From NCBI RefSeq assembly GCF_964355755.1, contig NC_092679.1, positions 19,203,432 through 19,267,431 of the forward strand: a DNA stretch of 64,000 nucleotides, in the 5' to 3' direction. The DNA is from Antedon mediterranea. Its lineage: Eukaryota; Animalia; Echinodermata. Positions 16,955 to 58,690 of this stretch are shown piece by piece. Position 1 is the first letter of the stretch. Each line of letters starts with the position of its first letter. The notes below the pieces were generated by a model. The model did not search any database and was not told the DNA's origin. It saw only the letters and a program-made list of their open reading frames with translations. Made by a program: the position numbers and the translations under genes.

Positions 16955-19900
16955 TTACATAGCTGGTAGAGCAGCTGCATATTTGGGGGACTTTTTAGCA
17001 ACAACGTTACGAAGATGTGAGTCTGCCATTACATACGGGTTGATCCGCTAAAAGAAAATAAGTGAAAACGATGTTATATAATAACACAATGATATACTTG
17101 ATGCTACAGTATTAGATTAGACTACATCACTACCCACTAGATGAAAATCCTAGGTCAAACCCGCAAAAACACACCCTAGACAACTACATTAGACCATACC
17201 CTAGACAACATTATACAACCCCTTAGACTAAACCATTAGACCACAACAATAAAGGACAATTTATTCTGAGCGGTAAAGTCCAATTTACACATACGAGCGG
17301 TAGCGGTAACGGAAAATCGCGTAGCTTGTCACACGTATAATCTGTATCTACCGGGAGCGGAAATCACCCGTCCGCTCCACGTTGTGTGTATGGTCATACG
17401 GAATATATTTATATTACTGTTACCACTCGTCTATGTAAAGTGGCATATTTTATACCACCCAATTAAATTACAGTCATTAAATTAGAGCCACTAAACCACA
17501 TCATTATACCACCCAATTAAACCACACTCTTAGACCACACTCTTAGACCACACTCTTAGACCACACTCTTAAACCACACTCTTAGACCACACTCTTAAAC
17601 CACACTCTTAGACCACACTCTTAAACCACACTCTTAGACCACACTCTTAAACCACACTCTTAGACCACACTCTTAAACCACACTCTTAGACCACACTCTT
17701 AAACCACACTCTTAGACCACACTCTTAAACCACACTCTTAAACCACACTCTTAGACCACACTCTTAAACCACACTCTTAAACCACACTCTTAAACCACAC
17801 TCTTAGACCACACTCTTAAACCACCCAATTAAACCACACTCTTAGACCACACTCTTAAACCACACTCTTAGACCACCTCTGGACAACAAAAACTAAAACA
17901 CTCTTAGACCACACTCTTATTAGACCACACCTTTTAGGTGCAATTCAGTACTACAACCACGGAGGTATACCTCCATGCTACAACTACCACTAACTACAGA
18001 ATGTGCTACTATAAATACATACCCTTTGTTTCAGTCCAATATTATTCCTGTTCCATGTGTTATATCCCTAAAGTATAGGAAACAAAGATTTCTGTGAATC
18101 AAGCGATCAGAAACTGAGCGAGAAACTTGTTAAAACGTGGCAGCAGAGACCACCTGAGATAGCGTTTGATAACATTGTAACAATCAAGAAAAGATAACAT
18201 TCTTATAAATTAATAACGTCTGTCTTACCCGTTTGTTTATGGTCATTTGTGGTGATTTCTTCGCAACCAGAGTTGAGCGTTTTAATCCATCAATATGAAA
18301 ATCACCCTACAATCACAAATAATGACCAAATTATTATACGCCTACCTCTCTTCTCCGTTGTATAATTTATTTTAATAATATTTTCTATCGCAAATTTTCT
18401 TTAAAATAAATAGGTGATATATATTGATAATAAATTTACATTGACACAATTTTAAAATGGCAGGGAAGTTGTTCTGTTAAGCTTGGTTTACACTATACGC
18501 AATGACGTAGACGTAACGCAAGCCAATGCCCTTCTAATAATTGTGTTTAGTGACTTGACCAATGACAAAGCGATTTTCAATTTTTCAATTCAATTCAATT
18601 CACATTTATTTACTCATCGTTTATAAATATAATTTCATAGCATAAATGATGGCAAAGATCCTGCATAGAGAAGTTTACACTTCTGTTTTCGCAGGACCCT
18701 TTTACATAAAAAACATAAAACAATAAACACAACATAATATATATAAAATAAAATATAGCATTTCCTATTTACATTTTAGAGTTGTTCATCATCATAAAGC
18801 GATAGTGTTTTTCTAACATGATTATTTATACATTTATTTTTCTTAAAAGAAGACGCAACACAATGACGTAGACGCAACGTAAAACGTGGTTCCCACTAAA
18901 ACGCAACGAAGCGACGTATCGACGCAAAATGATGTATTGCGTAATCACAAGTGGGAACCGACTACGCAATAGTGCTTCCAATATCGCAGGTTTGATTTCA
19001 CGCAGGCGGTGGTAAACACAATTATTAGAAGGACATTGGCTTACGTTGCGTAGATTGCGTTACGTTGCGTCACTAGTGGGAACCAGGCTTAAGCGAGTTG
19101 ACTAATGACAAAGCGACAGTCTGTTTAATCAAATCACGATAGCTTGGTTCCCACTAGAGACGCAACGCAATGACGTAGACGCAACGCAATTCGGACTATC
19201 CATTTCTTTGATTGGTCAACAAGTGGGAACCAAGCTGTCCCATTATGACGTTACGCAACCACGTAAGCGCGACGTCAGCCATTTACCCAATCACAAGCGA
19301 TGGATTGGTCAATTCGCTCTCGTCATTGCGTTAAGACTCTAGTGGGAACCAAGCATTATATTAGTGTGGAGGTGGGTTATTTTCGTGTTGAAATTAGGGT
19401 ACTATTTAATCAATAGATTAAACCTACCAAAAACCCTTCATCCATGTCGTTATCTTTCGGAACTTCTTGATATTTATTCACAAACTGAGCTGTGTTCGGC
19501 ATGTTAGGCAAACAACACTGAGATGCTATAAAAAAAATTAAGATATTAGAAATGTTAACAATTATAAATGCTTTTCATATCATATCAAAGTTAGTGTGAA
19601 CCAATAAACAAAGTGTGATGTGCTCAAATATCGTAGTGATATGCTTAAATATAGTAGTGATATGACACCATCGTGTCCATATATGGGCACATCACATTTT
19701 TGTCACATAAAGTTTGATAGTGTAGATAAATCTTTAGACACCACATTAAAGGTCGGCTTAGTGGGGTACCTTTTTCAGGTATTAGATTTTATTCTCAGAA
19801 ACAAATTTTGTTTCAACTGAATTTAATTGAACAAATGTATTCATTGATTGAATTTCCTCAAATACTGTTACCTATGTCCGTTCATAACAGATTCTTTTGT

Positions 19901-55900: not shown

Positions 55901-58690
55901 ATATGAAAATTGAATGACTTATTCCCATACAGCTATGAAACCATCCTTTAAAGTCTTATGAAAATCGGGCGATAATTTATTGAGTAATCCTACTAACGAT
56001 ATAGAAACAAACATACGCGATCAACCATATAACCTCTCGTTATTCTGGCGGAGGTAATAATAAGTCTTTACTTTCAATATGGTGGCAATTGCAGAGAATT
56101 TTGGATTAAAAAGATAACCTAACTTAACTATTTAAAGAAACGATTACATGGTTGTTTTTTAAATTCCACACACCCATTTAAATATTGCTCAATCGAGCAT
56201 CGTCCAAATGCATTTCGGGTAATAAATAAGTTAATGAAAATTTGTATATGTTTCCTTCATAAAGTACTATATATCATACTGTACAAGCCAACACTCTCGT
56301 TTTGGCCAGAATACTCCAATATTTTAGATTCGTCTCCCAGCCTATAACATCGTGCTTCCGGTTTTCCACATTTTCATTAAAAGCAAAATTACGATATTTA
56401 AGCCATTAAGACCATCTGTGGTCATAATTGATTTTTTTCTGTTCGGAAAGAGCATTCCCCTCACATAACCACCACGTGATACCTGGATTTTCAGGATATG
56501 GAGAAGAAACCGGCACTTTCAGACAAACTAAGGAGATTCCAGTATTGGAAGAGTTCAGGATACAGCAAAACTTTCACTTTTACATTGGAAAAGACCGACA
56601 ACAAGTTGGTAAAACAATTTATTGATAGACTGCATGAAATTGTGATATTATAGCAAATATAATATCATGCCCTTGAACTGTCAAAATGCCGTCTGATTGG
56701 TTGAATGTTTAGTGTCAATAAATGTCAATGAAGTAGCAATTTATCTCATTTTATCTCATTGCACCTGACATCATCTATGATTGATTGATTGATGTCAAAA
56801 TGATAAATGGGAAATATTACTCCACAACCAATAAATAATCCTAGTATTTTCTTATATTCAAACAAACAAATAAAATTCAGTTCTGAAATTTATCTGGACA
56901 TGATTGATTATTATTGATGATTAATGTGTTGATTAAATAAGTATTGATTAATTGATTATTATTATTATTATTGATAAATATGATAGGGGAGGGCAGATAG
57001 CATTACTTTCTTAAACAATTGAACCTTTTATACAATTATACAAAAAAAATCTGAACATGATTACAGTATTCATCATTAATGTATTGAATAAATAATTGAT
57101 TAATTGATAATTATTGTTTATTGATGAATGAATGGGATAAGAGAAGGCAAATAGCATTATTCTCTATTAATGAGGCACCTCCGGTCTCTCTTCAAGGATT
57201 TCCTCCAACCCATCCCCAAATACAGTTTATTAGTAGATGAAAGTAGTATCTCCTTACCATGGTTGTCCCTTGAATAGGTTTCTTCTGTACTAAATACTGC
57301 ATTAATATTATTGTTTATAATTTATAATTATTTTGTTACGAAAGAAATCAGGCTTCGGCGCGTCTGGAATTGCTGTGGTTGGCTATGAAGGCTGGGCGAG
57401 GTCTGAAAACTATTCCTATAATATTCTAAAATTAGCTATTCTAATATAAATATTAACCTTTGGTCATTTTGTAATACATTCTAGCCAAAATAATTGCACT
57501 TACTCAAAGATTTTGATCTGAAAAAAAGTGATGAAAATTAATTTCTTGATGTATTTAATTCATTATGTTGTCTGGATTCTAAGATATATGTGTCTCTGAA
57601 CTGGTTTGCCTGTTGCAAACAGTCTGAGCAAAAACTTAAGGAATTTTAATTGCTAACTTTCAAAATTTAGTGACTCCATACTACATCAATAATTTTAAAG
57701 TAGTGAAAGAAAATGAAATTCTTCCAATGCAAAATCCTATTCACCATTTACAAAACTGTATCAGCTACATAACACAGAAAAGTATCCCTTTAATAGGTGT
57801 CCCTTTAATAAATAGGGGTGTCTTTTCAATAAGGATCCCCTGGATAGGGTTTCCCCTGAAGAAGGACAGTCCAAAGAACTTAGTACATCTTTCGAGACGA
57901 GTAGGGTAGGTTACCCCGGTGTACTAGTATACACACAGCCACTGTCACTCATCAAGAGGCCACCTTGATTGTCAGCATACGCTGTTTAGGGTCACCCTCT
58001 ATAATTAAGGTGTAATAAAATAAATAAAATAATAGAGGGTTTCTATCCTACTAGATTTAGGATTTTCAAATCCAATTTTTTTCTGTAAATTAATTATTTC
58101 ATTTGAATTTTTTCCTTACAAAATCCTGTTCAAATGAGTACCAATCAAACAGAAATACCGTTAACATTTTAAAAATTTCAGAACACGACACGACACGACA
58201 CGATAACTTGCTAATTACTTAATTACAGAAAGGGAAGTAATACAGTCTTATTACAAGACATTGGCATTGTTTGACCATCCTAAGAAAATCAAAGAAATTA
58301 GTTACAACTCAGGATTAGAACCACAAGAACGTTAATGTAAGCTACTACATGCTATTTCACAGAATTGTGTCAATCACTAGAAGTTCTTTGAATTATACAC
58401 TACGTTTGATTATTAATTTAGAAAATTTCTGGCCAGGAGATTTTTTCTCTTTCTATGTTACTAGTTTTATTATTTCTGTTTGGATCCAAGAAGAATAGCT
58501 AAATGTTGGTTTGCAATTTCAGTTGCTTTTCTAGAGTATAGATAGACGAACAAACGGGGTCATAATCACCTTTCAAATCTCGCCGTACACTCCTAAGATC
58601 TTTGTCGACATCTTCAAACTTAACGAGTGTCGCCTTCGTCACTTTACTCGGTTCCGGTATGGGAAGATGCGTTAGTTCAGTGCCGGCATT
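46997..58690 (-). CDS. FMN: FMN/Cappuccino-class formin (FMN1/FMN2-like), last five coding exons; gene continues beyond the window
   Basis: Phase-compatible exons 58690-58570 ([40 protein letters not shown]), 55693-55549 (..[16 protein letters not shown]..), 51094-50945 (..[36 protein letters not shown]..), 50491-50404 ([29 protein letters not shown]), 47038-46997 ([13 protein letters not shown]). Matches the FH2 end and tail of FMN1/2 as recalled. Confidence 0.92.
47620..48220. repeat. Degenerate tandem repeat in the last formin intron
   Basis: Recurrent GTGTGAACAGGGCTTAAGGATAA..ATAACCCTCT units. Confidence 0.65.
48950..49016 (-). mobile_element. tRNA-derived SINE head (degenerate)
   Basis: Minus strand GGAGCTGTAGCTTGGTGGTTAA...CCAGGGTTCAATCCTG has A- and B-box-like motifs but no good cloverleaf. 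Confidence 0.45.
50163..50308. mobile_element. hAT-like MITE
   Basis: CAGTGGCGTA...TACGCCACTG TIRs with a near-identical 8-bp TSD (ATAGTGGT/ATAATGGT). A related CAGGGGCGGATC element lies at about 7579-7708. Confidence 0.65.
51289..51438. repeat. Perfect ~75-bp tandem duplication
   Basis: ATATCAAACACAACAATATAAGGTGATCATC...AAAATTATTAAC occurs twice in succession. Confidence 0.85.
51935..52800. repeat. 16-bp minisatellite (TGGATGTGCTACCCCC)n in a formin intron
   Basis: Period 16 (TGGATG at 52025, 52041, 52057...), degenerating at both ends; accounts for the three overlapping [16 protein letters not shown]s. Confidence 0.93.

What the first reader, a model, noticed from the sequence alone, without database searches (positions are those of the whole stretch)
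16955..58690. SCG5-GREM-FMN gene neighbourhood shared with vertebrates
Seen: 7B2/SCG5 (-), gremlin (+) and an FMN-class formin (-) are consecutive, with gremlin and formin tail to tail. Established: human 15q13 has SCG5-GREM1-FMN1, 1q43 has the paralogous GREM2-FMN2 pair, and Grem1 limb enhancers lie in and around Fmn1 (limb deformity locus). Inference: the three-gene block predates vertebrates and may be held together by gremlin enhancers in neighbouring genes. SCG5 is divergent from gremlin here, whereas I recall the same strand in human, implying a local inversion. I cannot tell from sequence whether this has been reported for this lineage.
Basis: partly seen in the sequence, partly recalled or inferred. 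Interest (0 to 1): 0.85.

Follow-up and report, generated by a model that had tools for sequence, protein, structure and literature searches.

The report
Pre-vertebrate 7B2-gremlin-formin gene block
In a feather star (a sea-lily relative), the genes for 7B2, gremlin and an FMN-type formin sit side by side as at the human SCG5-GREM1-FMN1 limb-deformity and colon-polyp locus, so the neighbourhood likely predates vertebrates and limbs, probably kept intact by gremlin's control DNA, which is not yet shown.

Summary
Observation confirmed. This crinoid window holds three consecutive genes: a seven-exon 7B2/SCG5 gene (-, 21406-16955), gremlin (+, CDS 34245-34805) and the last five exons of an FMN/Cappuccino formin (-, 58690-46997). 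Gremlin and formin are tail to tail. 7B2 faces away from gremlin, whereas human SCG5 points toward GREM1. Identical scaffold lengths put all three genes on one scaffold in Anneissia, and 7B2 with gremlin on 0.62-Mb and 0.49-Mb scaffolds in Acanthaster and Saccoglossus. The block therefore likely dates to the deuterostome ancestor; order outside the window is untested. Scaffold-level Grem-FMN linkage in limpet, amphioxus and human is published (PMC4079206), and this scan found the formin-gremlin pair before in an urchin (e1-9037062). My searches found no report of the invertebrate 7B2 link. Enhancers inside the neighbouring genes are not shown. A CpG-rich domain with seven GGCGCC sites surrounds gremlin and stops at the formin 3' end, while the formin introns are CpG-poor. 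Mouse Scg5 lies outside the Grem1 TAD. This is a real new member of a known kind: ancient microsynteny around a developmental gene.

The parts
21268..21406 (-). 7B2/SCG5 coding exon 1 (ATG, signal-peptide-like N-terminus)
   Evidence: exact match to P0134
20580..20714 (-). 7B2 coding exon 2 (GGAGEG and PPNPCP motifs)
19947..20042 (-). 7B2 coding exon 3: symmetric (phase 1-1) 96-nt exon encoding a Cys-rich insert shared by echinoderm and hemichordate 7B2, absent from amphioxus 7B2
19428..19525 (-). 7B2 coding exon 4
18229..18306 (-). 7B2 coding exon 5 (first VAKK motif between dibasic sites)
18023..18067 (-). 7B2 coding exon 6
16955..17047 (-). 7B2 coding exon 7 (NPY...VVAKK C-terminal peptide, stop)
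21800..44350 (.). CpG-retaining domain around gremlin (o/e 1.19-1.33 in its three segments), right edge at about 44,350; inferred unmethylated regulatory territory. The left edge is not sharp: CpG is also high over 12-21.8 kb
29372..39084 (.). Seven GGCGCC (SMAD1/5-type core) sites at 29372, 29768, 32403, 36894, 38316, 39049, 39079; none has the composite N5-GTCT half-site
32464..32749 (+). gremlin non-coding exon 1 (5' end is only the contig end)
   Evidence: record 13; donor GT at 32750
34221..34805 (+). gremlin exon 2 with the whole CDS (34245-34805, 186 aa, DAN cystine knot)
43974..46996 (-). formin 3' UTR, at least 3.0 kb (contig end, not a mapped poly(A) site)
   Evidence: record 4
46997..47038 (-). 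formin last coding exon (second half of the basic FSI-type tail, stop)
50404..50491 (-). formin penultimate coding exon
50945..51094 (-). formin exon, end of FH2
55549..55693 (-). formin FH2 exon
58570..58690 (-). formin FH2 exon, the most 5' one found; the rest of the gene lies beyond the window
10264..12711 (+). flavin monooxygenase (FMO-like), left neighbour of 7B2
232..8957 (+). codanin-1 (CDAN1), ends approximate
   Evidence: Codanin-1_C at 5683-6078 and 6617-7015

Best explanation
The window holds consecutive 7B2, gremlin and FMN-class formin genes, a block likely inherited from the deuterostome ancestor and probably kept together because gremlin's control DNA fills the gaps up to both neighbours. 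Shown: the three genes, their order and orientation here, and a CpG-rich domain that ends at the formin 3' end. Inferred, about 0.9: the adjacency is homologous to vertebrate SCG5-GREM1-FMN1, with gremlin-formin older still and with at least one local inversion of 7B2. Inferred, about 0.5: gremlin is a BMP-induced BMP antagonist whose enhancers, including SMAD1/5-bound ones, lie mainly in the 10.7-kb upstream and roughly 8-9-kb downstream gaps. Harmless breakpoints would then be confined to narrow strips beside each neighbour, so the neighbours are rarely lost. On this reading the vertebrate limb enhancers in Fmn1 introns are later additions to a linkage that already existed.
For: Anneissia: 7B2-like XP_033105442, formin XP_033105443 and gremlin XP_033105449/50 all report contig length 1,648,852. 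Acanthaster: 7B2 XP_022104829/30/32 and gremlin XP_022104836 both report 618,158. Saccoglossus: both report 486,688. That is 3 of 3 other species for which I had both scaffold lengths. Limpet, amphioxus and human share Grem-FMN synteny at scaffold level (PMC4079206 section 9). The gremlin tree puts the window in an ambulacrarian clade (97/93) beside vertebrate GREM1 (86/91). Gremlin has a non-coding exon 1 and a coding exon 2, as for mouse 'Grem1 coding exon 2'. CpG o/e is 1.19-1.33 from 21.8 to 44 kb against 0.41-0.58 in formin introns and 0.55 in CDAN1; the change-point is near 44,350. GGCGCC occurs 7 times in 21.8-44 kb against 1.1 expected, 0 of 300 local shuffles, rank 10 of 2080 hexamers and 2 of 604 CpG-containing ones. 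Gremlin is a direct pSMAD1/5 target in Nematostella, and SMAD4 binds mouse CRM2. Human GREM1 enhancers lie in the SCG5-GREM1 gap. HMCO limb elements are absent from ray-finned fishes that keep the linkage.
Against: No enhancer was tested, and no conserved non-coding sequence could be sought in a distant species. The composite BMP element GRCGNC-N5-GTCT has 0 matches. GGCGCC as a blind pick would not pass correction for 2080 hexamers (p about 0.08), and an unrelated GGCCTA family is far more enriched (39 against 2.9). Per CpG, GCGCCA is as frequent in the CDAN1 region (2.0 per 100) as downstream of gremlin (2.03). The CpG-rich zone has no sharp left edge at 7B2: the best left change-point is 11,900. 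Reading CpG o/e as methylation is general knowledge, not measured here. A shared scaffold shows neither adjacency nor orientation, and formin was checked only in Anneissia. Vertebrate GREM3 is listed with other neighbours, and mouse Scg5 is outside the Grem1 TAD, so gremlin can work without these neighbours. No vertebrate 7B2, GREM2, Cerberus or NBL1 sequence was in my trees.
Confidence: 0.5

Rival explanations
1. Classical bystander block: ancient gremlin enhancers lie inside formin introns and perhaps inside 7B2, so the neighbours cannot be separated at all.
For: Shown in mouse: CRMs in the Grem1-Fmn1 landscape, two of them conserved to sharks. Both GREM1-FMN1 and GREM2-FMN2 survived genome duplication (the second pair is recalled). 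Small CpG-richer patches exist in crinoid formin introns at 47.2, 49.2-49.7, 55.9-56.5 and 62.3-62.7 kb; the last holds the eighth GGCGCC. Most of the formin gene is outside the window.
Against: The four larger introns measured are short (2.9 to more than 5.3 kb) and CpG-poor. Only 1 of 8 GGCGCC sites is in formin. HMCO elements are absent from ray-finned fishes that keep the linkage. Scg5 is outside the mouse Grem1 TAD.
Confidence: 0.22
2. Neutral leftover: the genes were neighbours on an ancestral linkage group and stayed together only because these lineages rearrange slowly and the gaps are small targets.
For: Grem and FMN belong to ancestral linkage group CLG11. 7B2 has been inverted at least once, and GREM3 is listed with other neighbours. 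No functional element is shown here.
Against: PMC3514665 found about 0.015 conserved pairs per genome after shuffling gene order, and only about 1-5% microsynteny between distant species. Linkage within 0.5-0.6 Mb holds in starfish and hemichordate, with adjacency in crinoid and human. Gremlin is the kind of developmental gene that anchors such blocks.
Confidence: 0.22
3. Shared regulation of 7B2 and gremlin from a common head-to-head region.
For: The genes are divergent here, and the CpG-rich zone extends over the 7B2 body (o/e 0.91).
Against: The 5' ends are about 10.7 kb apart. The orientation is not shared with human. Starfish 7B2 is a nerve-enriched transcript (supplement row). A GREM1 enhancer SNP showed no association with SCG5 expression in colon.
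Confidence: 0.04
4. Not homologous: the 7B2-like gene is a derived paralogue, or the adjacency arose independently.
For: P0134 is below the Pfam cut-off, and ambulacrarian 7B2s form a long-branch clade. I obtained names for only 11 of the 20 representative hits (P0135, ten).
Against: Starfish and sea cucumber members pass the cut-off narrowly and are named 7B2. The clade's nearest row is amphioxus 7B2. Only one 7B2 entry appears in the starfish nerve proteome tables. The same linkage is seen in four ambulacrarians.
Confidence: 0.02

Closest known systems
Vertebrate SCG5-GREM1-FMN1 locus and the mouse Grem1-Fmn1 (limb deformity) regulatory landscape (PMC3541112, PMC8455560, PMC5057327, PMC7898835)
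   Same: Same three families in the same order; gremlin and formin tail to tail (the vertebrate tail-to-tail orientation is recalled); gremlin CDS in exon 2; candidate regulatory DNA on both sides of gremlin.
   Different: 7B2 is head to head with gremlin here and head to tail in human. The crinoid gap is compact (12.2 kb stop to stop) against a mouse TAD of about 190 kb. No enhancer in formin introns is shown. The 7B2 carries a Cys-rich insert.
Grem-FMN synteny in limpet, amphioxus and human (Roch and Sherwood 2014, PMC4079206, Fig. 5; text and legend read, figure not visible)
   Same: Already reports Grem with FMN in invertebrates on linkage group CLG11.
   Different: Scaffold-level only in the text; no echinoderm or hemichordate, no orientation, and SCG5/7B2 is not named in the section read.
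Conserved ancient microsyntenic pairs and genomic regulatory blocks (Irimia et al. 2012, PMC3514665)
   Same: A developmental gene with unrelated neighbours retained across phyla.
   Different: Whether GREM-FMN or SCG5-GREM is among its 795 groups could not be checked: the names are absent from the main text and the supplements were not available.

Membership tests
Gremlin (DAN family) | DAN cystine-knot domain | tested here: met
   Pfam DAN 125.7 bits; conserved cysteines in the alignment
Gremlin (DAN family) | Closer to GREM1/2 than to NBL1 or SOST | tested here: met
   PDB GREM1 163, GREM2 150, NBL1 58, SOST 18 bits; none of the 120 listed hits (of 720) is named as another DAN member
Gremlin (DAN family) | Tree with named Cerberus/DAND5, NBL1 and GREM2/3 | tested here: inconclusive
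   Tree of 30 rows has GREM1, ambulacrarian and metagenome rows only; placement fits the species tree but the named outgroups are missing
FMN/Cappuccino formins | FH2 domain of the FMN subtype | tested here: met
   Anneissia orthologue P0121 (82% identical): FH2 287 bits; 342-424 bits to nine formins, six named Capu/formin-2, against at most 110 bits to DAAM, DIAPH, FMNL and INF2 chains
FMN/Cappuccino formins | Basic C-terminal FSI tail (the only obvious defining feature according to 10.1101/591974) | tested here: met
   Tail ends in GLKAKL, against GLKARL/GLKARV/GVKARI-type tails in the nine relatives; sequence likeness only, and a PDB search with the exon found no FSI peptide
FMN/Cappuccino formins | FH1 domain and SPIRE binding | not testable with these tools
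   FH1 lies outside the window; binding not assayed
7B2/SCG5 (Secretogranin V) | Pfam PF05281 at or above the curated cut-off | tested here: not met
   20.4 bits against 25, E 4e-4, only family hit; ambulacrarian relatives score 16-26 bits, others 60-210
7B2/SCG5 (Secretogranin V) | GGxxEGxQ, PPNPCP and C-terminal NP..VAKK motifs in order | tested here: met
   Invariant columns across 15 sequences; relatives named 7B2 in starfish, sea cucumber, hemichordate and amphioxus; BLAST to amphioxus 7B2 E 8e-14
7B2/SCG5 (Secretogranin V) | One-to-one orthology to vertebrate SCG5; PC2 chaperone/inhibitor activity | not tested
   No vertebrate 7B2 was identified among the 11 hits named of 20; activity needs an assay
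Ancient conserved microsynteny | Linkage within four intervening genes in four or more major lineages (criterion of PMC3514665) | tested here: inconclusive
   Adjacent in this crinoid and in vertebrates; same short scaffold in Anneissia, Acanthaster, Saccoglossus; intervening genes not visible
Genomic regulatory block (target plus bystander) | Target is a developmental regulator | tested here: met
   Gremlin
Genomic regulatory block (target plus bystander) | Target enhancers or conserved non-coding elements inside the bystander gene | tested here: inconclusive
   Formin introns are CpG-poor with a few small patches; no distant genome or chromatin data available

The most novel reading that the evidence does not exclude
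The limb-deformity landscape descends from a pre-vertebrate BMP-feedback regulatory block: SMAD-bound gremlin enhancers flanking the gene, and some inside the formin, have locked 7B2-gremlin-formin together since the deuterostome or bilaterian ancestor, and fins and limbs co-opted that block. The 22-kb crinoid version would be a compact model in which to find the ancestral elements.
Probability: 0.2. Interest if true: 0.7.

Novelty: new member of a known kind. Interest (0 to 1): 0.4.

Why it matters
The Grem1-Fmn1 linkage is the textbook case of limb enhancers sitting in a neighbouring gene, and the SCG5-GREM1 gap is a human polyposis and colorectal-cancer locus. The same order in limbless deuterostomes means limb enhancers cannot be why the linkage first arose or was first kept. 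The crinoid locus squeezes the candidate regulatory territory into about 22 kb with a visible edge at the formin 3' end, which makes the question directly testable. It also corrects annotation: the 'uncharacterized' crinoid, urchin and brittle-star proteins are 7B2 with a lineage-specific Cys-rich insert.

Tried and rejected
No whole genome is held for this window, so copy number and wider gene order could not be read. Single 7B2 and formin exons gave no Pfam hit. My first 7B2 model of five exons was wrong by two exons. Metagenome survey: 55 gremlin-like loci, 0 of 55 with a credible formin or 7B2 exon; most are under 7 kb, so this is uninformative. A 7B2-like NPYL motif upstream of gremlin in L003 was rejected: it overlaps what looks like a splice acceptor and the 7B2 profile gave no hit. 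No listed run is on record as RNA; X5 is RNA by the tool's guess and also covers introns at low depth. The 7B2 splice joints were not displayed in the cut tables. Organism B contigs (about 95% alike, at most 2.7 kb among those listed) are too close and too short to show gene order or conserved elements; one piece at 30469-31031 differs at only 10 places (with 24 gaps), a hint at most. The composite BMP element was not found. The PDB gave no 7B2 structure and no FSI peptide match. The ESM Atlas gave no answer. Grem1+Fmn1+invertebrate+linkage gave 0 papers, 7B2+gremlin+synteny 0, 'neuroendocrine protein 7B2'+gremlin 1 unrelated paper. Searches listed none, by title or abstract start, on the invertebrate SCG5 link. 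Supplements of PMC4729200 had 0 hits; those of PMC4079206 had 0 hits with one file not searched; those of PMC3514665 were unavailable; bioRxiv supplements were not seen. The gene does not appear among the crinoid PCNP precursors as described in PMC9793003 section 36. Jaeger 2012 was not held.

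
Full report
Origin. The window is AT-rich animal DNA. The best foreign hit of the gremlin protein is Anneissia japonica at 85%, and a protein identical to the window's 7B2 exons is labelled Antedon mediterranea by its source. It is a crinoid. No whole genome was available.

Gene 1, 7B2/SCG5 (-). Seven GT-AG coding exons from 21406 to 16955 reproduce the annotated 227-aa protein P0134 exactly; my first five-exon model lacked two exons. 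Databases call the protein uncharacterized, and it scores only 20.4 bits on Pfam Secretogranin_V, below the cut-off of 25. A search of 1.84 billion representatives returned 20 hits. I scanned 15 of them with Pfam and 14 matched Secretogranin_V at E below 0.01. Of ten looked up, named members were 7B2 or uncharacterized proteins of starfish, sea cucumber, urchin, hemichordate, brittle star, chiton, amphioxus (two) and nemertean, plus one fragment filed under Salmonella. Echinoderm and hemichordate sequences form one clade (100/99) with amphioxus as nearest row in a midpoint-rooted tree of 15 rows without vertebrates. The low Pfam score likely reflects a Cys-rich insert of about 34 residues after PPNPCP that amphioxus lacks and that is largely encoded by a symmetric phase 1-1 exon. 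I file it as a divergent 7B2; orthology to vertebrate SCG5 rests on family, apparent single copy and position, not on a tree.

Gene 2, gremlin (+). CDS 34245-34805, Pfam DAN 125.7 bits. PDB scores are 163 for GREM1, 150 for GREM2, 58 for NBL1 and 18 for SOST. In a 30-row tree it falls in an ambulacrarian clade (97/93) next to vertebrate GREM1 (86/91); GREM2, Cerberus and NBL1 were not available as named rows. It is best read as the single pro-orthologue of GREM1/2/3 (lancelets and tunicates have one copy, 10.1101/794404 passages). A contig of run X5 joins 32464-32748 to 34220-34808, giving a non-coding exon 1 and a GT-AG intron.

Gene 3, formin (-). Five exons, 58690-58570, 55693-55549, 51094-50945, 50491-50404 and 47038-46997, give an open reading ending in a basic tail. 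A 6,524-nt X5 contig shows the last two joints and a 3' UTR reaching at least 43974. The Anneissia orthologue scores 342-424 bits against nine formins of which six are named Capu or formin-2, and at most 110 bits against DAAM, DIAPH, FMNL and INF2 chains. The tail motif matches that of the Capu-type relatives. It is FMN class.

Arrangement. The order is CDAN1 (+), FMO (+), 7B2 (-), gremlin (+), formin (-). The gremlin and formin stops are 12.2 kb apart; the 7B2 and gremlin start codons are 12.8 kb apart. Eleven hand-picked ORFs from the gaps and formin introns gave no Pfam hit at cut-off, and Rfam found nothing. In human, GREM1 lies downstream of SCG5, whose 3' end faces it (PMC5057327 passages). 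7B2 has therefore been inverted in at least one lineage; the direction is unknown.

Other species. Gene order could not be read, but the protein tables give accession numbers and scaffold lengths. In Anneissia all three proteins report 1,648,852 bases, with accessions XP_033105442, 443 and 449/450. In Acanthaster, 7B2 (XP_022104829/30/32) and gremlin (XP_022104836) both report 618,158; in Saccoglossus both report 486,688. That is 3 of 3 species where both values were in hand. For Patiria and Asterias I had only gremlin; for sea cucumber, urchin, brittle star, amphioxus, chiton and nemertean only 7B2. Equal length in one species is taken as the same scaffold (inference). Scaffolds of 0.5-0.6 Mb are a small part of genomes of several hundred Mb (sizes recalled), so chance co-location is unlikely even given shared chromosomes. 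A survey of 55 metagenome gremlin loci found no neighbour, but most loci are too short to tell.

Literature. PMC4079206 section 9 (read in full, figure not visible) reports a limpet scaffold with Grem sharing synteny with amphioxus and human, including FMN, on CLG11. PMC3541112 (passages) shows Grem1-Fmn1 linked in all vertebrates examined, with HMCO limb elements absent from ray-finned fishes. PMC8455560 (passages) places the limb CRMs in a Grem1 TAD of about 190 kb, finds two conserved to sharks, and states that Scg5 is outside that TAD. PMC7898835 (passages) maps GREM1 enhancers to the SCG5-GREM1 gap. PMC3514665 (passages) reports nearly 600 ancient unrelated gene pairs; its table could not be seen. 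My searches found no paper on an invertebrate 7B2-gremlin link; subscription journals are mostly not covered.

Why is it kept? CpG o/e is 1.19-1.33 from 21.8 to 44 kb, 0.91 over 7B2, 0.41-0.58 in the formin introns and 0.55 in CDAN1. The right edge falls near 44,350, at the formin 3' UTR end; the left change-point is 11,900, so that edge is not at 7B2. In invertebrates such a contrast usually separates unmethylated regulatory territory from methylated housekeeping gene bodies (general knowledge, not measured). I tested two BMP motifs chosen beforehand because gremlin is a pSMAD1/5 target in Nematostella and mouse (recalled, then seen). The composite element has 0 matches. The GGCGCC core occurs 8 times, 7 of them within 29.4-39.1 kb, against 1.1 expected for 21.8-44 kb, with 0 of 300 shuffles reaching 7. 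It ranks 10 of 2080 hexamers after repeat masking, behind a much stronger GGCCTA family of unknown meaning, and normalising by CpG weakens the related GCGCCA signal. This is a hint, not proof. It points to the gaps rather than the formin introns as gremlin's control region in this animal. A few small CpG patches in the introns and the unseen 5' part of the formin keep the bystander model open.

Verdict. The most likely mechanism is constraint from gremlin's flanking regulatory DNA (about 0.5), ahead of intronic enhancers (0.22) and neutral retention (0.22). The Grem-FMN half is partly published; the 7B2 half, the orientation change and the compact regulatory domain appear unreported in what I could search. 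New member of a known kind; interest 0.4.

Noticed in passing
window 19947-20042 (-); P0134-P0140: Echinoderm and hemichordate 7B2 carry a Cys-rich insert after PPNPCP, largely one symmetric exon here. It is absent from amphioxus 7B2 and likely pushes them to or below the Pfam cut-off, so crinoid, urchin and brittle-star copies are annotated 'uncharacterized'.
   Followed up: partly
window 232-8957 (+): Codanin-1 (CDAN1) lies two genes left of 7B2. Human CDAN1 is also on 15q, several Mb from GREM1 (recalled), which would be further macrosynteny.
   Followed up: no
window 10264-12711 (+): Compact FMO-like flavin monooxygenase gene between CDAN1 and 7B2.
   Followed up: no
window 21800-43970: GGCCTA/TAGGCCTA is the most enriched word in the CpG-rich domain (39 against 2.9 expected; about 1.8-2.7 per kb against 0.25-0.5 outside). 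Meaning unknown.
   Followed up: partly
window 23681-24492: Long inverted repeat with internal 14-bp tandem units in a high-copy region, like a foldback or MITE element.
   Followed up: no
window 13400-16300, 17414-17980, 51862-52700: Satellite arrays: a complex unit of about 100-200 bp between FMO and 7B2, a 13-bp array in the last 7B2 intron and a 16-bp array in a formin intron.
   Followed up: no
P0141 (WP_411025588.1): A 106-aa fragment filed as 'Salmonella sp.' resembles echinoderm 7B2, so it is probably host contamination in a 371-base contig.
   Followed up: no
window 30469-31031: A stretch 1.4-2 kb upstream of gremlin exon 1 differs from organism B at only 10 places (with 24 gaps), fewer per base than the piece over the gremlin CDS, and holds two GCGCCA-type words; a candidate proximal enhancer.
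   Followed up: partly
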